From an uncultured archaeon (GTDB lineage: Archaea; Iainarchaeota; Iainarchaeia; Iainarchaeales; CSSED10-239), in the NCBI GenBank assembly GCA_964591795.1, contig CAZQEL010000010.1, positions 1 to 28,390 of the forward strand: a DNA stretch of 28,390 nt, given 5' to 3'. The notes below the pieces were generated by a model, which was given only the letters and a program-made list of their open reading frames with translations, searched no databases and was not told the DNA's origin. The position numbers and the translations under genes were made by a program. Positions 3,841 to 28,390 of the stretch are shown here, one piece after another; positions within the stretch are counted from its first letter, which is position 1, and every line of letters begins with the position of its first letter.

Positions 3841-3878
3841 AAAAGTTTATTTTAATTTAAAAAAAAAAAAGAAAAAAA

Positions 3879-5120
3879 TTATTTTCTTTTAAATATACCA
3901 ATTATTACTCTATATGCTGGTTTAATTAGAATTTTAATTAACCATCTTAAAAGTAAAATGAAAACAGCAAGGCCTAAAATAAATCCAATTATTCCAAAAA
4001 TAGACATTATGGCATTGTTAACTCCTTTTCCATTTGTTGAAAAATCAGTTTCTACTGTAATTGTTTGAGTTATTTTTTGTTCTTTTAAAGTATTGTCTTT
4101 GTAGAATAAATTAACTGTGATTGTACTTTCTTTTGCATCGATATTAGTTGTATTTAATGTGATGTCTATAGTATCATAGTTGTTTTTTTCAATAGATCCA
4201 ATAAATTCTTGTGTGCTTTTAATATTAGTTCCTTCTATTGTAACATATGAAACCTCAGTATCAACATTTCCAATGTTGTATATCTCTAATGATATTTTTT
4301 CTTCATTATTTGGTTTTATTTTAAAATTTGTTCCTACATTTGTAATGTTTAGTATCATTTTTGGTTGGTCAATTATTTTTATTCCAATATTTCTAGTCAA
4401 ATTATAGTTTCTATCAACATCTGAATAATTAATTGTAATTGGTAATGTATAACTTGATGTTGTTACAACTTTTGATACATTTATTTTGAATATAATTTGT
4501 TTTTCTTCGCCAACATTTATTTTTTCTAAATATTGAGTTTTAAGATCTATTACTTTAATAATTTCATCAACTGAATCATCTACTGTTATGAAAATATCTT
4601 TAGCGTCTTTCTTACCTAAGTTTTTAAGAGTTAATACAAATTGAGAATCATTACCAATACTTGCTTCTTGTATTTCTGAAGATATCACATCAACAATTGC
4701 AGATTGTCCTTTAATATCAATTATGTATTTTTTAATATTGTATATTGACACACCATCTCTTTTGTATCTAAATTCAAGATCATATGTGCCTGTAACAACA
4801 TCACTGTTAGTTTTTAATTTATATTTAATTATTTTTGTTTGGTACGGTTCAAGAACAGGTATTTTTCCTTCATTTTCTGAAATTAAAATAAAAGGATATT
4901 CTGTTTCTAAAAAGTAATCTATATTTTTTGCAGCAGTATTACTTTCGTTTGTTAATTGAATCCATATTTCAAATTCTTCACCAGATATAACTGGTGTTGG
5001 ATTATAATTATAAGTATCTGCATTTAAGTTAATTATATCATAGTTTGTTGTTGCTGCATATATTGGAGTTATAATCAATAATAATGCAATTATTCCTAAT
5101 AAAACTGTTTTTAAATTCAT
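3879..5120 (-). CDS. secreted, C-terminally anchored beta-rich repeat protein (CARDB / COG1361 S-layer-like domains)
   Basis: 413 aa. Signal peptide MNLKTVLLGIIALLLIITPIYA, about three ~100-aa beta-sandwich-like repeats and a C-terminal TM anchor plus basic tail. It sits between the two FtsX permease genes, a known archaeal arrangement (recalled, not searched). Confidence 0.55.
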   Translation of the reverse strand: MNLKTVLLGIIALLLIITPIYAATTNYDIINLNADTYNYNPTPVISGEEFEIWIQLTNESNTAAKNIDYFLETEYPFILISENEGKIPVLEPYQTKIIKYKLKTNSDVVTGTYDLEFRYKRDGVSIYNIKKYIIDIKGQSAIVDVISSEIQEASIGNDSQFVLTLKNLGKKDAKDIFITVDDSVDEIIKVIDLKTQYLEKINVGEEKQIIFKINVSKVVTTSSYTLPITINYSDVDRNYNLTRNIGIKIIDQPKMILNITNVGTNFKIKPNNEEKISLEIYNIGNVDTEVSYVTIEGTNIKSTQEFIGSIEKNNYDTIDITLNTTNIDAKESTITVNLFYKDNTLKEQKITQTITVETDFSTNGKGVNNAIMSIFGIIGFILGLAVFILLLRWLIKILIKPAYRVIIGIFKRK

Positions 5121-9062: not shown

Positions 9063-9842
9063 ATGAACGATAAATTTAGACATTATAATTTTAAATCATT
9101 ATCCAGTAAGAATAAAAAATTTATTTTATATTCGTTTTTGTTTATTTTAGTTGTAGGTGTTTTTGGATTTGTTTTTTTCCTTCAACCTAAATTATATACA
9201 CCTGAAATTATGATGGTTTCTGGTACTGAATATATTTCCGGTGAGCAAGGTCAGGTTATTGTAAGACTTGAAGATGCTACTAGTAAGTCAATAACTGATG
9301 CGAATTGTTGGTTAACTCTTTTATTTCCAGATAAATCTTTATTTCTAATTGATATTCCAATGGTTTCAACAAGTATGCCTGGTAACTATTATCATCAATT
9401 TATAACTCCAATGGTAAACGGAATTTATGAAGAATATATTAAATGTACAATTCCTGATTTTGAGAATACAACTAAAATTTTAAATATTTCAAACTCTTTT
9501 CACGTATCTCCAGGATTAAATTTAATTGTTCAGTTAACTACTCTTCAAAAAGAACATTATGATGATTTAGTTGCAAGATTAAATTCATTGGATGCAAATG
9601 TTAAATCTCAATTTTATTTAATTGATAACAAATTTTATGATTTACAAACATATCTTGATGAAAATGTTATGGGTGAAATTAATAATCTTAATACTAATGT
9701 TGTTGATGTTAATGATTCTTTAAATAATTCAATCAATAATGTGAATAGAAGATTAAATAGCACAATGGAAAATAATTTTGATGAGTTTTATAACAGATTC
9801 AAAGATAGTTATGATGCTATGGCTAATATCTTCGGTGAATAG
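9063..9842 (+). CDS. hypothetical membrane-anchored protein with an Asn-rich coiled-coil C-terminus
   Basis: 259 aa. N-terminal TM (FILYSFLFILVVGVFGFVFFL), a beta-rich extracytoplasmic region, then heptad-like LNxxVxxxN repeats. No recognisable domain. Confidence 0.5.
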   Translation: MNDKFRHYNFKSLSSKNKKFILYSFLFILVVGVFGFVFFLQPKLYTPEIMMVSGTEYISGEQGQVIVRLEDATSKSITDANCWLTLLFPDKSLFLIDIPMVSTSMPGNYYHQFITPMVNGIYEEYIKCTIPDFENTTKILNISNSFHVSPGLNLIVQLTTLQKEHYDDLVARLNSLDANVKSQFYLIDNKFYDLQTYLDENVMGEINNLNTNVVDVNDSLNNSINNVNRRLNSTMENNFDEFYNRFKDSYDAMANIFGE

Positions 9843-10062
9843 TAATTATTAATTATATTTAATTAATTTAAAAAGCTTGAATTTAAGTCTAAATTCATTA
9901 TAATTAAAGATATATATTTAGAAAATATGTATTTACCTCCATTTTATTTAACAATTGAACGAATTAAATGATTTTTACTTAAATTAAGTTATTTATCAAG
10001 TTTTTATAAATATTTCTATACTTATATTATATATTATAAACTATATTAATGAGAAAACACAT

Positions 10063-12927
10063 ATGTACGATTATAAAGATTTTGAAAAAAAATGGCAAAC
10101 TAAGTGGCAAGAAGAAAAAGTTGGTGAGGCTAATTTAGATTCATCTAAACCAAAATTTTTTTTAATATGGGCATATTTAACTGTTTCTGGTTTTCATCAT
10201 GTAGGTCATATGAGAGGTTATTCTTATGCTGATGCTATTTGTAGATTTAAAAGAATGAATGGATTTAATGTACTTCTTTCAGCAGGAGGACATGCTTCTG
10301 GAAACGGAGCAGTTTCAAAATCCTTAAAAGTTAAACAAAAGGATATTGAAACAATTAATTATTATAAAGAAAAAGGATTAACTGATAGAGATTTAGAACA
10401 AATAGAAACTCCAGAAGGGTTTGTTAATTTCTTTTCTAAAATGTATGTAAGGGATTATAATTCTTATGGTTATTTAGGTGATTTTAGAAGATTTACAGTT
10501 ACAACAAACAAAGATTATCAAAAATTTATTGAATGGCAATTTAAAAAACTTAAAGAAAAAGATTTGTTAATTCAAAAGCCTTATTTTGCAACTGCCTGTG
10601 TTAATTGTGGTCCAGTTGCAGTAGATCCTTCTGAAATGGATTTATCAAAGGGTGGTAATGCTGAAAAACAAGAGTTTACAATTATTAAATTAAAATTTGA
10701 AAAAGAAAATCAATTTATTTTAGTTGCAACTTTAAGACCTGAAACAGTTTATGGTCAAACAAATATTTGGTTGTCAACAGATGAAGAATATGTTAAGATT
10801 AAGAAAGATAATGAAGTTTGGATTGCATCAATTGATTTTTATGAAAAAATAAAATATCAAATAGATGGATTATCTTTATTACCTGAAAAAATAAAAGGAG
10901 AAGCTATTTTAGGGAAATTTGTAACTCCTCCAATAATAAATAGAAAAATAATTATTTTACCATCCTCTTTTTGTGATCCAAAGATAGGCACAGGAATTGT
11001 AACTTCAGTTCCATCAGATGCACCTTCAGATTATATAGGGCTTTATGATCTTCAAAATTCAAAAGAGGTCTGTGAAAACTATTCTTTAGATTATAATTTT
11101 ATTAAAGATATTAAATTAATACCAATTATTAAATCAAAAGATTTTGGTGAATTTCCTGCAGTTGAAATTTGTAAAAAAATGAATATTACTTCTCAAAACA
11201 ATTCAGAAAAGCTTAAAGAAGCTAAAAAGGAAGTTTACAAAAAAGGATATCATACAGGAGTTATGATTGATACCTGTGAAGAATATTCTGGTCTTAAAGT
11301 AGAGGTTGCAAAGGATAAAATAAAACAAAGAATGATTGATGAGTCAATTGCATTTGTATTCTATGATCTATCAGAAGAAGTTATTTGTAGATGTGGCTCT
11401 CCTGTTGTAATAAAAAGAATAGATGATCAGTGGTTTGTTAAATATTCAGATAAAGATTTAACTGAAAAAACAATTAATTATGTAAAAAACATGTTGATCT
11501 TACCTGAGTCATTTAAGAAAAATTTACCTAATGTTTTAAATTGGTTTGATGATCGGGCTTGTGCTCGTCAAGGTACATGGCTTGGAACTAAACTTCCTTT
11601 TGATAAGAGTTATACAATTGAGCCTATTTCAGATAGTACTTTATATCCTATATACTATCTTGTTAGTATTTATGTTAATGAAGGAAAAATAAAATTAGAG
11701 CAATTAACAGAAGAATTTTTTGATTATGTTTTCTTAGGAAAAGGAAATCCTTTAGATATTTCAAAAAACAATTCTATGGATATTAATTTAATTGAAAAAA
11801 TTAGAAAAGATGTTTTATACTGGTATCCTTTAGATATAAATTTAGGTGGTAAAGAACATCAAACTGTTCATTTCCCAACATTTTTAATGAACCATATAGG
11901 AATATTAGAACCTAGCTTTTATCCAAAAGGAATTTTTGTAAATTGGTGGGTAACTGCAAGTGGTGGTAAAATATCTAAATCAAAAGGTGGAGCTTCAAGT
12001 ATTGGTTCTGAGGCTGATAAATATTCTATTGATGCAATTAGATTATTTTATGCAAACATTGCAAGTCCATTTATAGATATTACCTTTGAAAAAGATGATC
12101 TTAAGACTTATAAACAAAGACTTGAAAGAATTTTTGCATTTATTGAAAATACGATTAACTCTAATGATTTAGTTGAACAAGATAATAATGAACTTGATCG
12201 TTGGTTTGAATCTAAATTTAATTTAAGAATTGAAAATATTATTAAAAATATGGATAAAATTGAGTTTAAAGCAGCAACTGATGAGATTTATTTTAATTTA
12301 CATAATGATTTTTCTTGGTATCTTAGAAGAGGGGGTATAAATAAAGCTCTTGTTAATACTATTTTAAAAAAATGGATTTTAACAATGGGTCTTTTTACTC
12401 CACACATGGCTGAAGAATTAAATAGTTTAGTTGGAGTTATTTCTTTAGTAATTAAGCAAGATTTTCCTAAAGTTGATATTGAAAAAATAAATTTATCTTT
12501 AGATAATAAAGAAAAAGATGTTGAAAAGTTAATTTCAGATCTAAGAAATGTAATTAAACTTTCAGGACTTGAAAAACCAAGTAAAGTTACTTTATTTATT
12601 TCTCCTTCTTGGAAATATTTGTTTTATCAAGAAGTTATTTCTGATTTAGATACTACTCGTAATGTTGGACAATTAATATCTAAATATCTAGTTAAGTATT
12701 CTAAGAATAAAGAAGAAGTTTCAAAAACAATTATAAAACTTGTAAAACAACCACTTTTAAAAGAAACAATTAAGTCTCAAGAAAAAGATTTAATTTTCTT
12801 AAATTCTATTTTGAAATTTTTAGAAGAAAGTTTAGATGTTTCAGTTGAAATAATCAATGCAGACAATAGTGTTGTAGAAAAAGCAAAAAAGGCATCTCCA
12901 AATAAAATCGGATTTTTAGTTGAGTAG
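10063..12927 (+). CDS. leuS: leucyl-tRNA synthetase, archaeal/eukaryal type
   Basis: 954 aa. HIGH motif (FHHVGH), KMSKS motif (KISKSKGG), a CP1 editing domain region and a long archaeal-type C-terminal extension. Confidence 0.95.
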   Translation: MYDYKDFEKKWQTKWQEEKVGEANLDSSKPKFFLIWAYLTVSGFHHVGHMRGYSYADAICRFKRMNGFNVLLSAGGHASGNGAVSKSLKVKQKDIETINYYKEKGLTDRDLEQIETPEGFVNFFSKMYVRDYNSYGYLGDFRRFTVTTNKDYQKFIEWQFKKLKEKDLLIQKPYFATACVNCGPVAVDPSEMDLSKGGNAEKQEFTIIKLKFEKENQFILVATLRPETVYGQTNIWLSTDEEYVKIKKDNEVWIASIDFYEKIKYQIDGLSLLPEKIKGEAILGKFVTPPIINRKIIILPSSFCDPKIGTGIVTSVPSDAPSDYIGLYDLQNSKEVCENYSLDYNFIKDIKLIPIIKSKDFGEFPAVEICKKMNITSQNNSEKLKEAKKEVYKKGYHTGVMIDTCEEYSGLKVEVAKDKIKQRMIDESIAFVFYDLSEEVICRCGSPVVIKRIDDQWFVKYSDKDLTEKTINYVKNMLILPESFKKNLPNVLNWFDDRACARQGTWLGTKLPFDKSYTIEPISDSTLYPIYYLVSIYVNEGKIKLEQLTEEFFDYVFLGKGNPLDISKNNSMDINLIEKIRKDVLYWYPLDINLGGKEHQTVHFPTFLMNHIGILEPSFYPKGIFVNWWVTASGGKISKSKGGASSIGSEADKYSIDAIRLFYANIASPFIDITFEKDDLKTYKQRLERIFAFIENTINSNDLVEQDNNELDRWFESKFNLRIENIIKNMDKIEFKAATDEIYFNLHNDFSWYLRRGGINKALVNTILKKWILTMGLFTPHMAEELNSLVGVISLVIKQDFPKVDIEKINLSLDNKEKDVEKLISDLRNVIKLSGLEKPSKVTLFISPSWKYLFYQEVISDLDTTRNVGQLISKYLVKYSKNKEEVSKTIIKLVKQPLLKETIKSQEKDLIFLNSILKFLEESLDVSVEIINADNSVVEKAKKASPNKIGFLVE

Positions 12928-14321
12928 TGATTATTATTAATAGTAGTTTTTCTAAAGAATATTCTCAATTAATTAAAGAGTATACTTCAAATATAAATAT
13001 AGCTTATAATTTATCTAAAAAATATTATAAAGATATATATGTGTTTGATAATATTCCTTTAGTTGAATATTCATTAAAAATAGCAACTAAACTTGTTAAT
13101 TATGATGAGCATATTATTGTTTCTGCAATTCTTTATAATCCCTATAAATATGGTCTTGATCTTAAATTAAATGGATTTTTAAAAAATGTACGTAAAATAA
13201 CAAAAGATTATTATTTTCTTAATTTTTATGAAATATCTCATAATAAAAATATTGATTCTAAAACCATTAAAAATATGGTTGTTCAATCTTTTTTTAAAAT
13301 AGAATCAGTTATTTTGTTATTTGGAGAGGCGCTTGTTATTTATGATTATTTTCCAAAAATTAAGAATGATGCCTATAAAAAAAGATTTCTAGATATTTTA
13401 GAATTTACAATTTTACCTTTGACCTATCAATTAGGCATGACAAATTTTAAAGAAGAAATACTTGAAAAATTAACTTATTTAAAATATAAAAAAAAATATA
13501 AGTATATTTGTGATTATTTTAAAAAGAATTATCCTTCTAAAAATTTAAAAATTATTAAAGATATTATTATTGATTATTTAAAATCAAATAATCAAAAACC
13601 GAATAACTATTATTATAGATATAAAAGTCTAGGTAGTTTTTATCAAAAAATTTATGTTAAACAAGAAAAGCAAAATTTTGAAGATGTCTTAGATATATAT
13701 GCATTAAGGTTAATTTATGTAACAAAGAAAGAATGTTATGAAGTCTTAAATTTAATTAAAGATAATTTTGATGTTATTGAAAATAGTTCAACTAAAATAA
13801 GGGATTTTATAAAACATCCAAAAGAAAATGGATATAGTTCTATTCATTTAAATATAATTTTAAATGATTTTCCTGTAGAAATACAAATAAGAACAATTGA
13901 TATGCATAATAATGCTGAGTTTGGAGTTTCTGCTCATTTTCATTATAAAAATATTGAGTTTTCTGAAAAAGATAAACGTTTAGTTACTTTTTTAAAGAAA
14001 AAAACTTTGCTTGAAAAACCCAAAGATAAAACTTATAAGGATCATGTAATGGTTTATACTCAAACAGGTGAAAGCATATTAGTGCCTAAAAAATCAACTA
14101 TTTTTGATTTTGCATTTTATCTTCATTCTGATTTTGCAAAGTTTTATGATTATGCAATTATAAATAGAGAAATTGTTGTAGATAAGAACTATCTTTTAAA
14201 AAATGGAGATAAAATAAAGATTATAAGATCTAAAGAAATTACTTTGAAAAAAGAATTTTTAAATTTTATTTTTGTTAAAAAAAATAAGAAAAAATTTGCA
14301 CTTCTTTTAAAAAATATTTAA
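12927..14321 (+). CDS. RelA/SpoT homologue: degenerate HD domain + (p)ppGpp synthetase domain + TGS domain
   Basis: The GTG start overlaps the leuS TAG by 1 nt. Synthetase motifs are YRYKSLGSFYQKI, DIYALRLIY, KIRDFIKHPKENGYSSIH and EIQIRTIDMHNNAEFGVSAHFHYK (compare RelSeq GRPKHIYSIYRKM / DLIAIRCV / GYQSIH / [24 protein letters not shown]). TGS domain: VMVYTQTGESILVPKKSTIFDFAFYLHSDFAKF...NGDKIKII. In the N-terminal HD region the His-Asp pair is replaced (AILYNPYKYG where LHDVVEDT is expected). Confidence 0.8.
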   Translation: MIIINSSFSKEYSQLIKEYTSNINIAYNLSKKYYKDIYVFDNIPLVEYSLKIATKLVNYDEHIIVSAILYNPYKYGLDLKLNGFLKNVRKITKDYYFLNFYEISHNKNIDSKTIKNMVVQSFFKIESVILLFGEALVIYDYFPKIKNDAYKKRFLDILEFTILPLTYQLGMTNFKEEILEKLTYLKYKKKYKYICDYFKKNYPSKNLKIIKDIIIDYLKSNNQKPNNYYYRYKSLGSFYQKIYVKQEKQNFEDVLDIYALRLIYVTKKECYEVLNLIKDNFDVIENSSTKIRDFIKHPKENGYSSIHLNIILNDFPVEIQIRTIDMHNNAEFGVSAHFHYKNIEFSEKDKRLVTFLKKKTLLEKPKDKTYKDHVMVYTQTGESILVPKKSTIFDFAFYLHSDFAKFYDYAIINREIVVDKNYLLKNGDKIKIIRSKEITLKKEFLNFIFVKKNKKKFALLLKNI

Positions 14322-17297: not shown

Positions 17298-17373
17298 AAA
17301 AAAGTAGGAAAGCTTTTTTATAATAAGTAAGCAAGTTTATTATTTGTTTAAAAGAAAATGATTCTTAAATTTT
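17298..17373 (+). other. 5' arm of the pre-23S rRNA processing stem
   Basis: aaaaaagtaggaaa (17298-17311) is perfectly complementary to tttcctactttttt (20394-20407). Further complementary blocks (gctttttt/aaaagagc, taagcaa/ttgctta, tttgtttaaaag/ctttaaaacaaa, cttaaattt/aaatttaag) extend the helix to the mature ends. Confidence 0.75.
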
Positions 17374-20335
17374 AGCTAAACCAATTAGTGGATAACTTGG
17401 CTTGTGTACTGATGAAAGACGTGGCAAGCTGCGATAAGCTTGGGGTAGGTGCATGCAACCTTTGATCCCAAGATCTCTGAATTATTCACTTAACGAAAGT
17501 TAGGTGAAGGGAAAACCCAGGGAATTGAAGCATCTTAGTACCTGGAGGAAAAGAAAACAATAGTGATTCTGTGAATAGAGTTGATCGAAAGCAGAAGAGA
17601 ATAAACCGAATTTCCTATAGTAATGTGGGAGACATGTGGGGTGATGGCTCAGTTACTTCTTATATATTTAAATCGAGGCGTTCTGGAAAGAACTACCATA
17701 GAGGGTGATAGTCCCGTAGATATAAAATATCTGAGAAGATTGCTGATGTCCTAGAGTACTGCGCGTTGGATATCGCGTAGAAATACAGCTGGCATTTACA
17801 GCTAATTCTAAATATAACACAAGACCGATAGTGAACGAGTACTGCGAAGGAATGTTGAAAAGATCCCTTGACGGGGAGTTAAAAGCACTTGAAACTAATT
17901 GGTGACAGCGCGGGTATGGCTTAAAAGGAATGAGAGTAATTTATAAGTGATAAAAGGTAACTTTTAAAACGCGAATTACTTGAACAGGGTCATACTGTCC
18001 GTCACGAAGCACGGGCGAGGGAGTTAGTTTGTGTGGCAAGACAAAGCGATTAAGTCGTGGTGTCGTAGGGAAACCAATTTGCCGCAAAATTTTGAGGGCT
18101 AAGGTATTAACTGTGCCTTTAGTCACATAAACTAGACCCGAAACCAGGTGATCAACTCCTGAGCTTGATGAAGCCAATCAACTGATTGGTGGAGGTCATA
18201 AGCGCTACTAGTCTAACTGTTCGTGTGACTTGGGAGTGGGACTGATAAGGTTATCGAACCTGGTGATAGCGGGCTCCTACCGAAATAACTCTAAGGTTAG
18301 CATAGATGGAGAATAATAACGGGGTAGAGCTACTGATTAGAAAGTACTGGAGAGAAATTTCCACCTTTCTTGTTAAACTCCGAATCTGTTATTTTCGCAG
18401 AAGTCTAGAGTAGGGGACGGGGGGTAAGCCTCTGTTCCAAAAGGGAAAAAACCCAAACTATGATTAAGGCCCTTAAGTACAAACTAAGTGTAAATTCGAA
18501 AAGAGTAATTTCCCTAATACAATTGGGAGGTTGGCTTAGAAGCAGCCATCCTTTAAAGAGTGCGTAATAGCTCACCAATCTAGGATAGATGCCCTGAAAA
18601 TTAACTGGGCTAAATTGACCACCGATATCGTAGAGCACATACACATGTGATCTGGTAGGTAGGTGATTTGGTAGAGTAGAAGCTAGGCTGTGAAGTCTTG
18701 TGGATCTGCCAAATATATGGATCCTCGCGATAGTAACATCAAAGAAAAGTGAGAATCTTTTCCGTCGAAGGGGCAAGGGTTCCTTAGCACTAATTATTAG
18801 CTAAGGGTAAGTCGATCCTAAGTTATTTCGTAATTCGAAAATAACGAAAGGGAAACAGGTTCATATTCCTGTACTAAAAAAACACGTGTGGTAACGCAAG
18901 TATTATTTTTGACAGCTTTGGCAAGGTGGAGTGTGCTTATCTGCACATCTAAATATTATAAACCTTTGGAGAACTATAATAGTGAGAAGAAGGTTAAAGA
19001 TATGAATGGGAGAAATCTTCCATTAAGGCCAAGGTTCCGTGAAAAGAGAATAATTCAGTGTTTTTTTAATCGTACCAAGAACCGAGAAAGGTGTCCCTAG
19101 CTGAGTAGGCTAAGACGTAATAGGAGAATTAAGTTAAGGGAATTCGGCAATTTAGCCCTGTATCTTAGGTATAAGGGGTGCTTACGGTTGTGTAAACTGT
19201 AAGTCTTAGTCACAAGGACTGTCCGACTGTTTATCAAAAACACAGGTGACTGCTAGCCTGAAAAGGTGTGTATAGTCACTGACTTCTGCTCACTGCTAGT
19301 ACGTGAACGTCAGGTTCAACTGATCTAAGCGCTGGTAAAGAGCGGGCCTAACTCTGAGGCTCTCATGGTAGCGTAATACCTTGCCGATTAAATGTCGGCT
19401 TGCACCAAGGAAGTAACGAGATCGTCACTGTCCCTAACTTTAACTTAGTGAACTTGCTTAGCGTGGTGAATAAGCCACGGACAACCAATGGGAGGATAAG
19501 ACCCCACGGAGGTTTACCACAGTCTGGTGTTGTTGTATTATTTCTACTATAGAGCGTAGATGGGAGTCGCTTATGCTGTTTTCGCTAGGGAACAGATAGA
19601 CACCAATGTAACACCATCTAGTAGAAAAAATACGACTTACGTCTATTTGACGGACATCACTTGATCGGGTGGTTGGACTGGGGCGGTACGCCCCTGAAAA
19701 GATATCAGGGGCGTCCAAAGGTCTGCTCAGGCTGGTCAGAAATCAGCCGTAGAGGACAAGACCAAAAGCAGGCTTGACAATGTTCCTAAAAGCACGGAAC
19801 GTTGGAAGGAAACTTGGGTCTAGCGAACGCTAGTGTCCCTATTTATGGGGGCCTAGTCTGACAGTGAACTTACCCTGGGGGTAACTGGGTTGTCGCGGGT
19901 AAGAGTCCACATCGACCCCGCGGTTTGCTACCTCGCTGTCGGCTTACGGCATCCTGGCTGTGCACAAGCAGCCAAGGGTGGAGGTGTTCACTCATTAAAG
20001 CCGTACATTAGCTGGGTTAAGAACGTTGCGAGACAGTTTGGTTCCTATCTATTGGTTGTGTAGGTTGTTTGAAGGTAAGATCCGTTTAGTACGAGAGGAA
20101 CGATGGGTCGCAGTCTCTGGTGTGTGGGTTGTCTGACAAGGCATAGCCCAGTAGCTACGCTGTATTCGATAAGTACTGAAAGCATCTAAGTACGAAGCGA
20201 ACCCTAAAACGAGACAGCCATTCTTGCAGAAATGCGAGACGAGAACTCCGGAAGAAGACCGGTTTGATAGGTTAGAAGTATAAGACGCGAGCCTTCGGGC
20301 GAGTTTTTAAGCTTTCTAATACTAATGGTTCGAGT
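17374..20335 (+). rRNA. rrl: 23S (LSU) rRNA, archaeal type; ends approximate to about 10 nt
   Basis: 5' domain GATGAAAGACGTGGCAAGCTGCGATAAGC, GTPase-centre and sarcin-ricin (AGTACGAGAGGAAC, about 20089) regions, and peptidyl-transferase/A-loop sequences (GGTGTTCACTCATTAAAG, GACAGTTTGGTTCCTATC). Helix 1 pairing of ccaattagt (17381) with actaatgg (20321). At about 2.96 kb there is no sign of a large intron. Confidence 0.95.
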
Positions 20336-20407
20336 AAATTTAAGATTTCTTTAAAACAAATTTTAGTTTGCTTATAACATTTAAAAGAGCTATTTCCTAC
20401 TTTTTTT
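20336..20407 (+). other. 3' arm of the pre-23S rRNA processing stem
   Basis: Complementary to 17298-17373 (see the 5' arm). It is followed by a T10 run at 20415-20424 that could act as an archaeal oligo-T terminator. Confidence 0.75.
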
Positions 20408-23652: not shown

Positions 23653-24383
23653 AGATTGTTAAAAAAAACGAAACATATTTTTTAAATTTTGAAAATAATT
23701 CAGAAAAAAAAGAGCTTGATTTATTTGTAAATAAATTTTTGGATATAAAAAACAAATCAAACTCATCCTTTGTTCTTTCTTTAAAAGATATTAAATCAAT
23801 TGATAAGAAAGTTATTGAAAAATCTCCAAATAAAGATCTTGTTAAAAATAAAATTGCAAAACTCTTAAATGATAAAAACTTAACTTTTCAAGATAAGGTT
23901 GAAGGTAATTTTGAAAAATTATTAAATAAAAACGATTTAGTTATTTTTAAAGAAATGATTGAGGATAAAGAAATTGAGTTATTTAAGCTTTCTTCTAAAT
24001 ATAAAAAAGGTGTTTATCAATTATCTTTACATAAATCTAATCTTTCAACTGAAGATTATAGTTTGTTTAAAAGTAATAAATATATTATTTTAAAAAAAAC
24101 TGATGATGCTAGACGTTTTTCTAAGGAATTTAAAGAAATAATAAAATCAGGAGAGGTTATTGGTATTAAATCTTTTGATGGAAATTATTATGTTATTTAT
24201 AAAACTATTTTTGATGAAATTAAACAAAAATTATATTTATTAAATTTAAATAGTGCTTTTTCAATTGATTTTTTAGAATCAAGATTAAGTTATTCAAAAG
24301 AACTGTTAAAATTTGTTATTGAAATTCTTAAAGATGAAGTGAAAATTATTGAAAAAAGAAAAGAAAGTTACGAGTTTATTTAA
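23649..24383 (+). CDS. hypothetical protein, probable winged-helix repeats
   Basis: 244 aa, translationally coupled to the PIN gene (ATGA overlap). The C-terminus ELLKFVIEILKDEVKIIEKRKESYEFI is winged-helix-like. No confident family assignment. Confidence 0.4.
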   Translation: MKIVKKNETYFLNFENNSEKKELDLFVNKFLDIKNKSNSSFVLSLKDIKSIDKKVIEKSPNKDLVKNKIAKLLNDKNLTFQDKVEGNFEKLLNKNDLVIFKEMIEDKEIELFKLSSKYKKGVYQLSLHKSNLSTEDYSLFKSNKYIILKKTDDARRFSKEFKEIIKSGEVIGIKSFDGNYYVIYKTIFDEIKQKLYLLNLNSAFSIDFLESRLSYSKELLKFVIEILKDEVKIIEKRKESYEFI

Positions 24384-24406
24384 AAAAATAAAAGGGTTGT
24401 TAAATT

Positions 24407-24604
24407 ATGGATGTTTTTACAATTATTTTGGTTGTTTTTGTAATTATTTTTTTTTTAGGTAATTTATTGTTATCCTATGTACTTGTTAAAAAAAAGAGTT
24501 CTTTTAATTATTCATCAAATGATGCTAAACTTGATATTTTAAATTCAAAAATTGATGTGTTAAATAAAAGAATTTCAATGCTTGAAGAAGAAAAAAGAAA
24601 ATAA
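24407..24604 (+). CDS. small membrane protein (1 TM + short coiled coil)
   Basis: 65 aa. N-terminal TM VFTIILVVFVIIFFLGNLLLSYVLV followed by a heptad-like tail. Confidence 0.4.
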   Translation: MDVFTIILVVFVIIFFLGNLLLSYVLVKKKSSFNYSSNDAKLDILNSKIDVLNKRISMLEEEKRK

Positions 24605-24626
24605 TTATCTATTTTTTTATAATTTT

Positions 24627-24687
24627 GGCTCAGCCCGCCCATCTATCATCATATTTAAGTCAGCAGGTGTTCAATATCATCATTGCC
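24627..24687 (-). ncRNA. archaeal C/D box sRNA (dual guide)
   Basis: The minus strand reads GGCA-ATGATGA(C box, 24683-24677)-TATTGAACACCTG(13 nt)-CTGA(D', 24663-24660)-CTTAAAT-ATGATGA(C', 24652-24646)-TAGATGGGCGGG(12 nt)-CTGA(D, 24633-24630)-GCC. It has a GGC/GCC terminal stem, canonical box sequences and spacing, and is a GC-richer island in an AT-rich spacer. Confidence 0.85.
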
Positions 24688-24754
24688 TAATATATTAATG
24701 GTTGGATCTGTTTTAAAAGATACCCTTTTAATACTATCTTTATATAATACAATT

Positions 24755-25426
24755 ATGAACCTATCTTTGATTGCAGAACAGTTTGTGAAAGATATTAATT
24801 CAAAAAATATTGTAGCTATAGCTTCTTTTGATAATGATCTTGAACTAATTACTAAAATTATAGATTTTTCAAAAAAAGAAAATAAAGAACCTTTTTTTGT
24901 ACCAATAAATGTTAAACAATCAAAATTAATTCATTCGTTAAAGCAGAAAATAGTTTCTTTAAATGATAAAGAAATCGATGCTGCCATTGAAATTGCTAAT
25001 CAAGTGGATTATTATAATAATTTTGTAAAACTTAAAACAAATTCTTTTATAAGAGATAAAATGATATCTCAATCAGCTTTAAAGTTGTTTGTTATAGTTG
25101 ATTCTAAAAATTATGTTCCTGAAATAAATTCTGATGTTTGTGTTGAAATATCCACCTTTGCATGGCAGAGAACTATTATTCATCTTCAAAGTTTTGGTTT
25201 TGCTCAGGCAATTTATGATACAAAGTCTGAATTTATAAAAAGTGAAATAGGGCATTATCTAGTTAAAATTAAACTTGATAAAAACATAACTTTAGATGAT
25301 TTTGAGTATTCCATTAGAAATATTCCTGGTGTTTTAGAGTCAGGGGTTTTTTTAGGTCTTGCTGATTCTATATATATTTATGATTCTGAAAAAGATTCAC
25401 TTTCTGTTAGAAAAAGAGAAGATTAA
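24755..25426 (+). CDS. ribose-5-phosphate isomerase A-like protein with degenerate active-site motifs
   Basis: The C-terminus IRNIPGVLESGVFLGLADSIYIY matches the RpiA IPGVVEnGlF...a motif, and VIVDSKN and VCVEI blocks also align. GLGTGST is replaced by AIASFDN and the DGADE block by EIANQ. I chose the ATG at 24755 because the TTG at 24683 lies inside the C box of the C/D sRNA. Confidence 0.6.
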   Translation: MNLSLIAEQFVKDINSKNIVAIASFDNDLELITKIIDFSKKENKEPFFVPINVKQSKLIHSLKQKIVSLNDKEIDAAIEIANQVDYYNNFVKLKTNSFIRDKMISQSALKLFVIVDSKNYVPEINSDVCVEISTFAWQRTIIHLQSFGFAQAIYDTKSEFIKSEIGHYLVKIKLDKNITLDDFEYSIRNIPGVLESGVFLGLADSIYIYDSEKDSLSVRKRED

Positions 25427-25537
25427 GGATTAATTTGTTCTTTTTTTTTAAAATCAATATATATATAAATAAAATGTTTCATAATTATTAATATAGTAAA
25501 ATCTTTTTTTCTATATAAATAAAAACAACATATATTT

Positions 25538-25610
25538 GCCTCGGTGGCTTAGTGGTTAAAGCGCCAGACTCATAATCTGGAGACCGCCAGTCCAAATCTG
25601 GCTCGAGGCA
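25538..25610 (+). tRNA. tRNA with CAU anticodon (elongator Met or Ile2), no encoded CCA, unusual T-loop
   Basis: GCCTCGG-TG-GCTT-AGTGGTTA-AAGC-G-CCAGA-CTCATAA-TCTGG-AGACC-GCCAG-TCCAAAT-CTGGC-TCGAGGC-A forms a full cloverleaf with anticodon CAT at 25571-25573. It lacks the A1:U72 pair and the three G:C anticodon-stem pairs of archaeal initiators. A TATA-like tatataaa sits at 25512-25519, about 25 nt upstream. Confidence 0.85.
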
Positions 25611-26410
25611 CTTTTATTCTTTCTATTGAATCCTTTAAAGTATGGGTTTTAGAGCACGATTTCTGTAAACAGTATAAGAAAGATTTAATTAATAAAATAC
25701 CTGTTATTTTCCAAAAACATACGTATACTTTTATTGAGTTGTCAGAGTACATACTAAAGAACATAAACAAGATAAAAGAAAGAAGATACACTGTTATTCT
25801 TGTATCCTTACTATTGAAATACTTGCAAGAAAAACATAATGTATCTGAAACAGCTATCTTACCTATAAGGAAACTACTTACTTTTTCTAGTCCTTCAAAG
25901 CAAGACATATATGTTCCTACTGATTCTGAAGTACAATCTACACTTTCCAAATTATCAGCTACAAACCAATTAATGTACTTAGTGTACTTAGTGTCGGGTA
26001 TAAGGAAGGTAGAAGGAAATTATCTTTTAGAGAATATTCCTAATTTAAAATGTCAAAAGTTTGATGGGTTTGTTAAAATATCAATGAACTATTTAAGAAA
26101 GAATAAAAAATCTTACTTTGCTTACTTACCGTTAGATGTTTACAGTAAGTTGTTAGCAAACTACAAACAATTATCAGTAAGTTCATTAGAGAACGATATA
26201 AAAAAAAAGAAACTCATACCTATAAAATATTGTAGGAAGTGGTTCTATACTAAGTGCATTGAGTTAGGAATTCCAGAATCTATTGCTGATTATTATCAAG
26301 GAAGAATAGGTAATTCAGTAGGTAATAATCATTATTTAAGTAGACAAATGTTGGCGGATAAGAATTATGTTAAAATAGTTAGTTATTTTAATTGTTTTAT
26401 ACTTAAATAA
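25553..26410 (+). CDS. tyrosine recombinase, SSV-type integrase C-terminal fragment (Int(C)) reading out of the tRNA gene
   Basis: Catalytic-domain motifs are LVSGIRKVEG (box I Arg), YCRKWFYT (box II Arg) and GNNHYL (Tyr nucleophile). The frame is open from 25553, inside the tRNA, to 26410. My translation upstream of the TTG at 25739 gives 62 sense codons with no ATG and no stop; the first in-frame ATG is at codon ~80 of the listed ORF. Confidence 0.65.
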   Translation, partial: WLKRQTHNLETASPNLARGTFILSIESFKVWVLEHDFCKQYKKDLINKIPVIFQKHTYTFIELSEYILKNINKIKERRYTVILVSLLLKYLQEKHNVSETAILPIRKLLTFSSPSKQDIYVPTDSEVQSTLSKLSATNQLMYLVYLVSGIRKVEGNYLLENIPNLKCQKFDGFVKISMNYLRKNKKSYFAYLPLDVYSKLLANYKQLSVSSLENDIKKKKLIPIKYCRKWFYTKCIELGIPESIADYYQGRIGNSVGNNHYLSRQMLADKNYVKIVSYFNCFILK

Positions 26411-26444
26411 TATTTATTTAAATAAAAATTTAGATGTATTTATT

Positions 26445-27713
26445 ATGAATATAGATGATTTAAAAGGATTATTATTGTATTTTGGTTTTTCAATAGGTTT
26501 AGGTGTTGGTATAGTTAAAAGTAGTTGGGGTTGGTTTTTTTTTATATTTTTAGGACCTGTAATTTTATTTTATATTATTGAAAAAGTGGTGAAAAATTAT
26601 AATCAAAGTTTGTTAAAAATAAAAGAAGATAAAACTATAAATACTATTAAACGTGAACTTAAACAAATTAAGACTAAAATAACTAAATTTAAAAAATCTA
26701 AACATAATAACTTATTAAAAAAATTTGTAAAAAACTTAGATTATGAAATGTCTCAAGAACTAACTTGGTTAGCTTACAAAAATGCAATTTATAATGATGA
26801 TTATGAATTTTTGAAATTTAGAGAATTAATAAATTCTAATAAAAAAATAACTTTTTTTGGATTTGAAGAGGCATATAATAAATATTATGAAATAGCATAT
26901 GAATTCATATCATTAAAAGAAACCATAAAAGAAAATTATTCAGAACTAAATAAATTAGAAATAGAAAAATTATATATAGATGAAATAGAAAAATCAAATA
27001 TTTTTGATTATAATCCAAAATATTTTGATAAATTAAAAGATTTATTAAAATTTAAAGGATTTAAATTTACAGAAGGAGAATTAGTTTATTTAATAATCTT
27101 AGAAAAAGGTGTATTTGCTAATACTAATTTTAATAAATATCTCTCTAAAAATGCAAATACTTTAGACGGATACATTTTAAATTTTATAAGTTATAATTAT
27201 GAATATGATAATGTAGATATAGAAAAATTAATTTTATTTTTAAAGAAAAATAAAATTACAATAAAAAAGGAAGAATTAATAGAAAAAATTGAAAATATAA
27301 GAGAGAAACAAGAATTAAAAAATTTTGAAAATAAAATAAATGAATCTAATTTCATAAATATTTCAGATATAGATAAAATGTCAGGATATGATTTTGAATC
27401 TTTTTTAGTTAAATTATATAAAAAAATGGGTTATTCTGTTCAACAAACACCTTTATCTAATGATCAAGGCGGAGATTTAGTTGTTGAAAAATTAGGTGTT
27501 AGATATGTTGTTCAAGCAAAAAGATATAATACTTCTATTAGTAATTCTGCAGTTCAGCAAGTTGTTGCTTCAATAAAATACTATAATGCAGATAAAGGAA
27601 TATTAATTACAAATTCAATATTTACAAAATCTTCGATTAATCTTGCAGATTCAAATAAAATTGAATTAATAGATAGAGATGAATTAAAATATTTGATTAG
27701 AAAATATTTTTAA
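26445..27713 (+). CDS. membrane-anchored Mrr-like (PD-(D/E)xK) restriction endonuclease domain protein
   Basis: 422 aa. Two N-terminal TM helices, a long Lys/Glu-rich helical middle region, and a C-terminal Mrr_cat pattern MSGYDFESFLVKLYKKMGYSV...NDQGGDLVVEK...VVQAKRY...AVQQVVASIKYYNADKGILITNSIFTKSS. Confidence 0.7.
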   Translation: MNIDDLKGLLLYFGFSIGLGVGIVKSSWGWFFFIFLGPVILFYIIEKVVKNYNQSLLKIKEDKTINTIKRELKQIKTKITKFKKSKHNNLLKKFVKNLDYEMSQELTWLAYKNAIYNDDYEFLKFRELINSNKKITFFGFEEAYNKYYEIAYEFISLKETIKENYSELNKLEIEKLYIDEIEKSNIFDYNPKYFDKLKDLLKFKGFKFTEGELVYLIILEKGVFANTNFNKYLSKNANTLDGYILNFISYNYEYDNVDIEKLILFLKKNKITIKKEELIEKIENIREKQELKNFENKINESNFINISDIDKMSGYDFESFLVKLYKKMGYSVQQTPLSNDQGGDLVVEKLGVRYVVQAKRYNTSISNSAVQQVVASIKYYNADKGILITNSIFTKSSINLADSNKIELIDRDELKYLIRKYF

Positions 27714-27745
27714 TATTTCTAAATTAATTTAGGGGAGAATTAGAT

Positions 27746-28372
27746 ATGGTATTTAATAAAAAAACCACTACGATTGTAAAAGTATATGGGTATGTTATAT
27801 TAAGTATAATTGTAGTTGCAATGATTATTGGAATTATAAGTGTAGCTTCAGATTCATCTGAAAATAATATAAATAAAATTAAAAATATTGAACTAGATAC
27901 AACTCAACCTAATACATTAAAAGAAATAAAAAACATATCTAACTTCACACTCAAAGATATAGAACAAAACTTATTTGATGGAAATTTGACTGCTATTCAA
28001 AGACAAGCTATTTATAAAAAACACATTGAAAATAAATATATTAAATTATATGGTGTCATTAATGGATTAGATATAGATTCTAAAAATAATTATTATGTTA
28101 CTATTACTACATTTTACAAATCTGAATTTGCAAACTTAAATGATGATCTAAATACATTAAAAATATTAGATCCAAGAGTTAAAATTTATTTAAGTGATGA
28201 ATTTGTGAAAAATAATAATTTGACAAAATACAATATAGGTAATGAAATAGAAGTTATTGGGTATTTACAATGGGATAATTGGATAGATTGTTGTGGCCAG
28301 TTTGAAAATAGTTTTATAACAAGTCCTTTAAAGTTTATTTTAACTAATGGTTATATTTTAAATATAAAATAA
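27746..28372 (+). CDS. membrane-anchored protein with probable OB-fold (tRNA_anti-like) ectodomain
   Basis: 208 aa. N-terminal TM (VYGYVILSIIVVAMIIGIISV). The segment LKDIEQNLFDGNLTAIQRQAIYKKHIENKYIKLYGVINGLD...VTITT resembles the tRNA_anti-like OB-fold family seen in small anchored proteins. Weak assignment, from memory. Confidence 0.4.
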   Translation: MVFNKKTTTIVKVYGYVILSIIVVAMIIGIISVASDSSENNINKIKNIELDTTQPNTLKEIKNISNFTLKDIEQNLFDGNLTAIQRQAIYKKHIENKYIKLYGVINGLDIDSKNNYYVTITTFYKSEFANLNDDLNTLKILDPRVKIYLSDEFVKNNNLTKYNIGNEIEVIGYLQWDNWIDCCGQFENSFITSPLKFILTNGYILNIK

Positions 28373-28390
28373 GAAACATTATTTTTTGGA

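What the first reader, a model, noticed from the sequence alone, without database searches (positions are those of the whole stretch)
25538..26410. Start-less integrase frame running out of a tRNA gene: SSV-type partitioned integrase marking an integrated element in a DPANN-like archaeon
The tyrosine-recombinase frame (box I R in SGIRK, box II R in YCRKW, Tyr in NNHY) has no in-frame ATG for roughly its first 140 codons. It nevertheless stays open for 62 codons upstream of the TTG listed in the ORF track, back to a TAG at 25550-25552 inside the D-arm of tRNA(CAU). In a genome this AT-rich, stop codons are frequent, so a stop-free run of that length is unlikely by chance. It is known that SSV1-type archaeal integrases carry attP inside their own gene. 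Integration into a tRNA gene splits int into Int(N) and Int(C), with Int(C) abutting the att copy that reconstitutes the tRNA 3' part. The layout here matches Int(C)-attL. By inference, everything to the right (from 25611 to beyond 28390) is an integrated virus or plasmid, and its Int(N)+attR end lies outside the window. Integrated elements and viruses of DPANN archaea are poorly characterised. By eye, not computed, the integrase segment also looks less AT-rich than its neighbours.
Basis: partly seen in the sequence, partly recalled or inferred. Interest (0 to 1): 0.7.

Follow-up and report, generated by a model that had tools for sequence, protein, structure and literature searches.

The report
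Split integrase marking an integrated element
The start-less integrase frame that runs out of the tRNA-Met gene is the larger half of a self-splitting ("suicidal", SSV-type) archaeal integrase, marking the left end of a mobile element in a DPANN archaeon; the mechanism is well known but has so far been described only from heat-loving archaea.

Summary
Frame 25553-26410 is open for 285 codons from a TAG inside tRNA-Met(CAU). It has no ATG before codon 141 and carries a PF16795 SSV-type catalytic domain with the R..KxxR..Y tetrad. Homologues conserve the protein upstream of the listed TTG, beginning just after the att (window 25552-25622), which runs 11 nt past the tRNA.

The missing half was found. 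A contig from the same metagenome assembly (L016) has an ATG-started 88-aa Int(N) ORF. It reads into a 71-nt stretch identical to window 25552-25622 and is followed by host genes. Joining the two gives an uninterrupted 337-aa integrase.

A syntenic relative (L002: RpiA, tRNA-Met, Int(C)) has both ends on one contig. These are perfect 89-nt repeats 8,983 bp apart, with Int(N) reading into attR. A more distant family member sits intact, with a tRNA-like stretch in frame, on a ~4.77-kb circular plasmid.

The host is a DPANN archaeon: LeuRS is closest to "Candidatus ainarchaeum", overall GC is about 22%, and 23S GC is 43.5%. All cultured relatives come from (hyper)thermophiles at 34% identity or less.

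Verdict: a new member of a known kind, of moderate interest. The cargo is largely unknown, so virus versus plasmid is undecided.

The parts
25538..25611 (+). Intact tRNA-Met(CAU) gene, the integration target. Its part from position 15 to the 3' end lies within the att repeat.
   Evidence: ARAGORN; Rfam RF00005, 69.6 bits.
25552..25622 (.). attL core: 71 nt identical to the attR copy on contig L016 (3954-4024). It runs from the tRNA D-loop to 11 nt past the tRNA 3' end.
   Evidence: Longest exact match and blastn, 100% over 71 nt. The flanks diverge immediately on both sides.
25553..26410 (+). Int(C): start-less 285-codon C-terminal part of a split SSV-type/suicidal tyrosine integrase. The first 23 codons (WLKRQTHNLETASPNLARGTFIL) are encoded by att.
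   Evidence: Translation; start-codon map; homologue alignment A1; identical 23-aa peptide in Int(N) P0082.
25910..26383 (+). Catalytic domain (PF16795) with R151 (26003-26005), K225 (26225-26227), R228 (26234-26236) and Y261 (26333-26335).
   Evidence: Pfam E=9e-28; alignment to SSV1 Int structures 3VCF/4DKS/3UXU; invariant columns; coordinates.
25623..28390 (.). Left 2.8 kb of the integrated element, cut off by the contig end.
   Evidence: Inferred from the att position and from the complete 8,983-bp element at the same site in L002.
26445..27713 (+). Cargo gene: 422-aa protein with a hydrophobic N-terminal segment (read from the sequence) and a C-terminal Mrr-type restriction-endonuclease domain (defence-like).
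   Evidence: Pfam Mrr_cat E=1e-30; PADLOC matches to the ZorD nuclease part and mREase_IV.
27746..28372 (+). Cargo gene: 208-aa protein with a hydrophobic N-terminal segment (read from the sequence) and unknown function.
   Evidence: ORF list; nothing significant in Pfam, and no match in PHROGs, NCBIfam or PADLOC.
24683..25426 (+). Host left flank: ribose-5-phosphate isomerase A. It is not part of the element but serves as the synteny anchor with L002.
   Evidence: Pfam Rib_5-P_isom_A; same gene order in L002; blastn synteny.

Best explanation
Window 25553-26410 is Int(C), the larger, catalytic fragment of an SSV-type ('suicidal', type I archaeal) tyrosine integrase.

Inferred mechanism: a circular element carried an intact ~337-aa int gene with attP inside its own reading frame. 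attP is a 71-nt copy of tRNA-Met(CAU) from the D-loop to the 3' end plus 11 nt. The integrase recombined attP with the chromosomal tRNA gene. This restored an intact tRNA at the left junction and cut int in two. Int(C), with no start codon, now abuts the tRNA (attL, in the window). Int(N), 75 codons including the att-encoded ones, has an ATG start and a probable ribbon-helix-helix N-terminus. It reads into the second att copy at the far end (attR, on contig L016), which is followed by host genes. The element is at least 6.7 kb, with 2.8 kb in the window. Its visible cargo is an Mrr-type nuclease and proteins of unknown function. By analogy with characterised suicidal integrases, excision should need an intact integrase supplied in trans, from a free copy, a related element or a tandem junction.

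Shown here: the anatomy, both junctions, the in-frame reconstitution, the complete layout in a syntenic relative, and an intact gene on a circular plasmid in a more distant family member.

Inferred: that L016 is the physical right end of this same insertion, that the enzyme is active, and the excision route.
For: Catalytic domain PF16795 E=9e-28. The R..KxxR..Y tetrad is invariant and is the published SSV-type signature (PMC5861418).

The open frame begins at the first base triplet inside the att, and its upstream stop, TAG, overlaps the att boundary. Protein conservation upstream of the TTG.

L016: Int(N) ORF 3799-4065 with an ATG start; exact 71-nt match of window 25552-25622 to L016 3954-4024; host genes to the right. 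It comes from the same ENA assembly ERZ27316756 as L017, which equals window 24295-26422 at 99.8%. Joining L016:3799-4024 to window:25623-26410 gives a 337-aa uninterrupted ORF.

L002/L005/L021+L023: same locus (RpiA, tRNA-Met), perfect 89-nt direct repeats 8,983 bp apart, and a 96-aa Int(N) reading into attR with the same peptide QTHNLETASPNL.

Twelve Int(N) ORFs share a conserved N-terminus followed by peptides that look like translated tRNA 3' parts of several different kinds. About a dozen Int(C) ORF calls begin with similar peptides; for L006-L008 and L011 the overlap with tRNA-Thr is seen in the DNA.

L025/L026 are circular ~4.77-kb contigs with an intact 344-aa int containing a tRNA T-arm-like stretch in frame.
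Against: attR is not on the window's contig. The link to L016 rests on 71 nt of identity and on a shared assembly, not on physical continuity. There is no overlap between the window end and the L016 start.

The ENA contig L017 breaks just after Int(C). This may mean several cargo variants share this int in the sample, so L016 could belong to a sister element or strain.

No empty attB and no free attP form of this particular element was found. No viral or plasmid hallmark is recognisable in its cargo. Activity is untested.
Confidence: 0.88

Rival explanations
1. An immobile relic. Int(C) is a leftover pseudogene from an old insertion whose remainder has been lost or scrambled, and L016 is the right end of a different, related insertion in another strain.
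For: The contig ends 2 kb after Int(C). The ENA assembly breaks right after Int(C). L007 (671-kb Iainarchaeum contig) has an Int(C) at tRNA-Thr with no att copy or Int(N) within 10 kb. Different elements do occupy the same tRNA-Met in one sample (L020 vs L021).
Against: Int(C) has no stop or frameshift in 285 codons, and all catalytic residues are intact. The attR copy is 71/71 identical, including 11 element- or site-specific nt after the tRNA that differ in L002, L020 and L022. Int(N) is intact with an ATG start, and the join is in frame.
Confidence: 0.08
2. A conventional integrase that stays intact after integration. Its att lies outside the gene (pNOB8-, SNJ2- or phage-like), it is translated from TTG at 25739 or 25814 as annotated (198 aa), and the upstream open frame is fortuitous.
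For: Gene callers start it at internal TTG or ATG codons (P0001 is 198 aa). tRNA-adjacent intact integrases are the common case in bacteria.
Against: Conservation extends 40 codons upstream of the TTG, with invariant K55. The tetrad is KxxR, not HxxR or YxxR. Int(N) ORFs reading into the same att exist. The reconstituted ORF is colinear with intact 344-aa family members and with pT26-2 Int. P(no stop) is 0.009-0.02.
Confidence: 0.03

Closest known systems
pT26-2-family suicidal integrases of Thermococcales plasmids (Int-pT26-2; Badel et al. 2019/2020, PMC6972569, PMC7253208)
   Same: - Widest match among the four plasmid records hit: tblastn covers query residues 27-276.
- attP inside the int ORF, made of a tRNA 3' part and translated as part of the protein.
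- int is split on integration.
- The N-terminus of pT26-2 Int (GKTRVHLYLDAEVVGGLKAEGFSLSALANKLLKE) aligns with the RHH-like motif of the DPANN Int(N) (hhalign E=0.003) and is followed by a tRNA-derived peptide.
- The paper describes variable tRNA targets, tandem insertions and hybrid junctions; both tandem and alternative occupancy are seen here.
   Different: - Only 26.7% identity.
- The hosts are hyperthermophilic Thermococcales, whereas this host is an AT-rich DPANN archaeon with 43.5% GC 23S rRNA.
- att is 71-89 nt here, against the 40-50 bp quoted for suicidal integrases.
- No cargo is shared with the L002 or L016 elements.
SSV1/SSV2 integrase (Fuselloviridae, Sulfolobales): type I archaeal integrase, PDB 3VCF/4DKS/3UXU
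   Same: - PF16795 catalytic domain.
- R..KxxR..Y tetrad.
- attP within int.
- tRNA gene target.
- Similar lengths of the intact protein: 337 aa when reconstituted here, 336 aa in SSV7 (SSV7_D336).

   Different: - 28-34% identity, over the catalytic domain only.
- The SSV7 Int N-terminus shows no similarity to the DPANN Int(N) profile.
- No fusellovirus genes were recognised in the cargo: the Pfam and PHROGs scans found none.
pNOB8-type and SNJ2-type archaeal integrases (type II: att outside the gene)
   Same: Tyrosine recombinases of archaeal mobile elements that target tRNA genes.
   Different: In those families the gene stays intact after integration and the tetrad is R..YxxR..Y or R..HxxR..Y. 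Here the gene is split and the tetrad is KxxR.

Membership tests
SSV-type / 'suicidal' (type I) archaeal tyrosine integrases | Catalytic domain of the Phage_integr_3 family (PF16795) | tested here: met
   E=8.9e-28, 97.7 bits against a cutoff of 27, aa 120-277, covering profile positions 2-160 of 161. phmmer to SSV1 Int structures gives E~1e-8.
SSV-type / 'suicidal' (type I) archaeal tyrosine integrases | Active-site tetrad R..KxxR..Y (Lys in place of the usual His) | tested here: met
   R151, K225-Y-C-R228 and Y261 are invariant in alignment A1 and aligned to SSV1 Int. The signature is as stated in PMC5861418.
SSV-type / 'suicidal' (type I) archaeal tyrosine integrases | att lies inside the int reading frame, so integration splits int into Int(N) and Int(C), each abutting one att copy | tested here: met
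   Window attL 25552-25622 equals L016 attR 3954-4024. Int(N) reads into attR, and the join gives a 337-aa ORF. The same layout is found on a single contig in the syntenic relative L002. Caveat: the window and L016 are separate contigs.
SSV-type / 'suicidal' (type I) archaeal tyrosine integrases | Target is the 3' part of a tRNA gene, and the tRNA is restored at one junction | tested here: met
   Intact tRNA-Met(CAU). att covers tRNA positions 15-73 plus 11 nt. Relatives sit in the same way at tRNA-Thr(GGT).
SSV-type / 'suicidal' (type I) archaeal tyrosine integrases | A free circular form carries the intact gene with attP in frame | tested here: inconclusive
   This was found for a more distant family member: L025 and L026 have terminal overlaps equal to the assembly k-mer, giving ~4.77-kb circles with an intact 344-aa int that contains a T-arm-like stretch. 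It was not found for the window's own element.
SSV-type / 'suicidal' (type I) archaeal tyrosine integrases | The full-length protein alone catalyses integration and excision at att; the fragments are inactive or poorly active | not testable with these tools
   Known for SSV1/2, pTN3 and pT26-2 from the literature.
pT26-2 integrase family (Thermococcales) | Close sequence relationship or clade membership with Int-pT26-2 | tested here: inconclusive
   tblastn gives 26.7% identity over 88% of the query, E=1e-13. The N-terminal motif similarity is weak (hhalign E=0.003, probability 10%). No phylogeny was made.
pT26-2 integrase family (Thermococcales) | Hosts are hyperthermophilic Euryarchaeota | tested here: not met
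   The nearest named LeuRS relatives are 'Candidatus ainarchaeum sp.' at 63%, then Woesearchaeota/Nanoarchaeota at ~50%. Related loci come from Iainarchaeum MAGs. 23S GC is 43.5%.
pNOB8-/SNJ2-/phage-type integrases (att outside the gene) | The gene remains intact, with its own start codon, after integration | tested here: not met
   There is no start codon for the conserved first 62 codons. The N-terminal part is encoded at the other junction.

The most novel reading that the evidence does not exclude
Suicidal (self-splitting) integrases are not a speciality of hyperthermophiles. A sizeable, previously undescribed clade (at least 75 protein clusters here) circulates in AT-rich, apparently non-thermophilic DPANN archaea of the Iainarchaeota / 'ainarchaeum' type. 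In this clade a compact RHH-att-catalytic module is shared by elements with unrelated cargo, which compete for the same tRNA-Met and tRNA-Thr genes within single populations, including tandem arrays and a 4.8-kb free plasmid. The window would be one documented insertion of this clade, giving a handle for finding DPANN mobile elements and a candidate integration tool for these uncultivated or co-cultured organisms.
Probability: 0.45. Interest if true: 0.55.

Novelty: new member of a known kind. Interest (0 to 1): 0.5.

Why it matters
The 2021 review of archaeal tyrosine recombinases and the 2020 'suicidal integrases' paper both present gene-splitting integrases as a feature of hyperthermophilic archaea: Sulfolobales, Thermococcales and relatives. 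Neither of those two papers mentions DPANN or a mesophilic host for them, and no paper in the held library uses 'SSV-type' together with a DPANN name.

This locus and its relatives show the same mechanism in DPANN archaea with about 22% GC. That widens the host and temperature range of the mechanism. It also gives an easy signature for delimiting integrated elements in DPANN MAGs: a start-less PF16795 frame running out of a tRNA, plus an RHH-like mini-ORF running into a tRNA 3' half. Current annotation misses this signature, calling truncated 165-265-aa 'integrases' and unnamed 73-136-aa ORFs.

It does not reveal a new mechanism.

Tried and rejected
- **Extending the contig:** impossible, because the window is the full 28,390-bp contig. 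Exact-protein look-ups of the two cargo genes found nothing.
- **att repeat or Int(N) inside the window:** none found.
- **IMG/VR scan with the family alignment:** no relative found.
- **JGI metagenome scan for the window-specific att end:** 0 hits. The second scan, with the tRNA-Met 3' half, gave 6 hits. Five show attL or attR junctions of inserted elements and one is cut off by a contig end. No empty attB or free attP was seen.
- **Reaching the tRNA-Met site in closer relatives of the host through LeuRS homologues:** not feasible, because the site lies 12.6 kb from LeuRS and the flank limit is 10 kb.
- **Cargo function on L016 and in the window:** only the Mrr nuclease domain and weak, sub-threshold HTH matches in the 184-aa L016 protein were found. 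There were no capsid, packaging or replication hits, so virus versus plasmid remains open.
- **RHH fold of Int(N):** only sub-threshold signals. Pfam CcdA scored 17.7-20.8 bits against a cutoff of 22.4. The PDB profile hit to CcdA had E=0.057. The AF2 model has mean pLDDT 65 with two helices after an extended N-terminal segment that DSSP does not call a strand. Seven of the ten best Foldseek hits are proteins I know as RHH-fold DNA binders, but all ten have E>1.
- **Bacterial promoter/terminator scan:** uninformative for an archaeon.
- **Wu, Liu & Ni 2024 (Nat Microbiol, DPANN viruses and MGEs):** could not be read, so prior description there cannot be excluded.

Full report
**1. The observation**

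The window is an AT-rich (~22% GC) archaeal contig. It carries an archaeal 23S rRNA gene (17363-20345) and two tRNA genes. tRNA-Met(CAT) lies at 25538-25611 on the + strand.

The frame entered at 25553 is open for 285 codons, up to the TAA at 26408-26410. The preceding stop is the TAG at 25550-25552, inside the tRNA D-arm. In-frame start codons are TTG at codons 63, 88 and 91. The first ATG is codon 141.

Stop-free runs of 62 or more codons make up 1.3% of all stop-to-stop runs in the window. Shuffles give P=0.009 for the 62 upstream codons and P=0.023 for the 42 AT-rich codons after the tRNA.

The frame matches Pfam PF16795 ('Archaeal phage integrase') at aa 120-277 with E=9e-28. It also matches the solved catalytic domain of the SSV1 integrase with E~1e-8. 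R151, K225, R228 and Y261 are invariant among 26 homologues. Together they form the R..KxxR..Y tetrad that the literature gives as the SSV-type signature (PMC5861418).

The GC remark is only weakly true: 27.2% for Int(C), against 19.5% for the rest of the element and 22-24% for host DNA.

**2. Is the upstream frame coding?**

Seventy-five other protein clusters are homologous, and all carry PF16795. In the alignment, conservation begins at about residue 24 of the window frame (ILSIESFKVW, against the consensus ISLxDWK). That is directly after the tRNA-encoded part. It includes invariant K55 and nearly invariant Y41 and Y58, all upstream of the TTG at codon 63.

Gene calls for the homologues start at scattered internal codons, giving lengths of 165-265 aa. 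About a dozen begin with peptides that look like translated tRNA T-arm and acceptor sequences, such as MVERNLGKVEVAGSIPAR, MGSNPILC and MVRTRSGVQIPSGA. At the DNA level, relatives in Iainarchaeum and 'ainarchaeum' MAGs start inside tRNA-Thr(GGT) genes.

This rules out a short intact integrase that starts at the listed TTG.

**3. A complete example at the same locus**

L002 is a 110-kb ENA contig. The same element also occurs in GTDB MAG contig L005 and in JGI contigs. L002 is syntenic with the window: 23S rRNA, then RpiA, then tRNA-Met(CAT), then Int(C) at 75% identity.

A perfect 89-nt direct repeat is found at 9812-9900 and again at 18795-18883, a spacing of 8,983 bp. It starts in the anticodon arm of the tRNA and runs 43 nt beyond the tRNA.

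A 96-aa ORF with a TTG start (18606-18896) reads in frame into the second copy. There it encodes the same peptide, QTHNLETASPNLVRG, that the Int(C) frame encodes at the first copy. Joining the two gives a 349-aa integrase.

The cargo includes a DUF5906 primase-helicase, a VRR_NUC nuclease, a SLFN/AlbA_2 protein and an HTH protein. Host genes resume after attR.

**4. The other end of the window's own element**

A search with an Int(N)/att chimera returned 12 short ORFs (73-136 aa). They share a conserved N-terminus (RIEINLDKHTYDYLKSKKINISKMVRQLLKVALFSGS), followed by a variable linker and then peptides that look like translated tRNA 3' parts of several different kinds.

One of these, P0082 (88 aa, ATG start), contains WLKRQTHNLETASPNLARGTFIL. 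This is identical to the first 23 codons of the window frame.

Its contig is L016 (12,768 bp). L016 shares an exact 71-nt stretch with the window: window 25552-25622 equals L016 3954-4024. The flanks diverge immediately on both sides. To the left of this stretch L016 carries genes with no significant family match (530, 307, 119 and 184 aa; the last has only weak HTH matches below Pfam's cut-offs). To the right are ordinary host genes: PAP2, radical SAM, a Na/H exchanger, a P-type ATPase and SerRS.

L016 comes from ENA assembly ERZ27316756. The same assembly also contains the window's attL junction, as L017, which equals window 24295-26422 at 99.8%.

Joining L016:3799-4024 to window:25623-26410 gives an uninterrupted 337-aa ORF with an ATG start. 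That is almost the same length as the 336-aa integrase of SSV7.

The two contigs do not overlap, so the element is at least 6.7 kb with a gap of unknown size. It remains an inference that both junctions belong to one insertion.

**5. Family behaviour**

- *A hot spot.* A JGI scan with the tRNA-Met 3' half found six places. Five carry an inserted element: L018 and L021 (attL) and L023 (attR) belong to the L002 element, L020 has the identical host flank but a different Int(C), and L022 is another host with another Int(C). The sixth, L019, breaks off inside att at a contig end, so its occupancy is unknown. All five use the same reading frame through att.
- *A tandem array.* L028 shows a tandem array at tRNA-Thr(GGT): Int(C), cargo, Int(N), a diverged att, then a second Int(C). 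This is the situation modelled for pT26-2-type integrases.
- *A free circular form.* L025 (4,897 bp, k127) and L026 (4,895 bp, k119) have terminal overlaps equal to the assembly k-mer, so they are ~4.77-kb circles. They encode a D5_N/DUF5906 primase and an intact 344-aa integrase. This integrase has the same order of parts: an RHH-like N-terminus, a GC-rich T-arm-like stretch in frame, then PF16795.

Free, integrated and tandem states are thus all represented in the family.

**6. The N-terminal domain**

Int(N) gives only sub-threshold matches to the RHH antitoxin CcdA: Pfam 17.7-20.8 bits against a cutoff of 22.4, and a PDB profile hit with E=0.057. The AF2 model shows two helices (14-22 and 27-44) after an extended N-terminal segment, with pLDDT ~85 over residues 11-40; DSSP calls no strand in the monomer. 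Of its ten best Foldseek hits, seven (NikR, RelB, CdbA in two forms, VapB, CopG, ParD2) are proteins I know as RHH-fold DNA binders, but none is significant.

The pT26-2 integrase N-terminus aligns weakly to the same motif (hhalign E=0.003). The SSV7 integrase N-terminus does not. An RHH-like dimerisation or DNA-binding head is therefore likely but not established. In this respect the architecture is closer to pT26-2 than to SSV1.

**7. Host and known relatives**

The window's LeuRS is 63% identical to proteins named 'Candidatus ainarchaeum sp.' and ~50% identical to Woesearchaeota and Nanoarchaeota proteins. Related integrase loci lie in Iainarchaeum and 'ainarchaeum' MAGs.

The 23S rRNA has 43.5% GC. 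By the established correlation between rRNA GC content and growth temperature, this argues against a hyperthermophile; that step is an inference.

Among deposited viruses and plasmids, every match comes from genera that are, to my knowledge, thermophilic or hyperthermophilic (the records themselves give no growth temperatures). Identity is 25-35% in the rows listed and below 60% in all 73 records. The matches are Sulfolobus SSVs, the Archaeoglobus pleomorphic provirus, Aeropyrum viruses, Thermococcus pT26-2, a Pyrococcus plasmid, a 6,970-bp Sulfolobus islandicus plasmid and a 5,740-bp Saccharolobus solfataricus P2 plasmid.

The review literature describes suicidal integrases as a trait of hyperthermophilic archaea and does not mention DPANN. 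Full-text searches found no paper combining SSV-type integrases with DPANN. One relevant paper, Wu et al. 2024, could not be read.

**8. Verdict**

Window 25553-26410 is the Int(C) half of a suicidal integrase at attL. Everything from about 25623 to the contig end is the left part of an integrated element whose Int(N)-attR end lies on another contig.

The mechanism is a known one. The new points are the host lineage and habitat, the longer att (71-89 nt), and the evidence that elements with different cargo share this integrase module and compete for one tRNA gene.

I rate it a new member of a known kind, with interest about 0.5.

Noticed in passing
window 12927-14321 (+): A 464-aa protein with RelA_SpoT (E=1e-29) and TGS domains lies directly after LeuRS. 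To my knowledge, a (p)ppGpp-synthetase-like gene is unusual in an archaeon, let alone a reduced DPANN genome.
   Followed up: no
window 17363-20345 (+): A full-length archaeal 23S rRNA gene stands alone. No 16S or 5S gene is present anywhere in the 28-kb contig, so the rRNA genes are unlinked.
   Followed up: no
L028 2194-11070 (JGI Ga0172371_10009210): Tandem array at tRNA-Thr(GGT): attL-Int(C) (199-aa call), 7 kb of cargo, an 86-aa Int(N), a second att copy only 85% identical, then immediately a second Int(C) (263 aa). This is a possible hybrid-integrase junction like those modelled for pT26-2.
   Followed up: partly
L020 vs L021 (JGI sample Ga0268276): The host flank and tRNA-Met are identical, but the Int(C) sequences behind them differ. 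Two different elements therefore occupy the same site in one population.
   Followed up: partly
L025 1-4897 and L026 1-4895: Circular ~4.77-kb plasmid-like contigs (36% GC), recovered from several metagenomes, that carry only a D5_N/DUF5906 primase, an intact 344-aa suicidal-type integrase and a few small ORFs.
   Followed up: partly
P0028, P0029, P0035, P0041, P0042, P0048, P0053 (loci L001, L015): A subgroup of 314-335-aa homologues has a different N-terminus (IVNNIYIN motif). For the two whose DNA was read (P0035 in L001, P0028 in L015), the first 300-330 nt hold no GC-rich, tRNA-like stretch. Their att site, and whether they split on integration, is unknown.
   Followed up: partly
window 26445-27713 vs L002 12619-14001: The Mrr-type nuclease in the window and the VRR_NUC nuclease in the L002 element share a 42-aa N-terminal segment (47.6% identity), although their nuclease domains differ. 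This may be a common membrane or targeting module on swapped effectors.
   Followed up: no
P0060: A 310-aa family member is deposited as a hypothetical protein of 'Elusimicrobia bacterium GWA2_38_7', on a 5.6-kb contig. This is probably a mis-binned archaeal contig.
   Followed up: no
L007 9932-20828 (Candidatus Iainarchaeum, 671-kb contig): An Int(C) runs out of tRNA-Thr(GGT), but no att copy or Int(N) lies within the next 10 kb. Either the element is larger or this is an orphan relic.
   Followed up: partly
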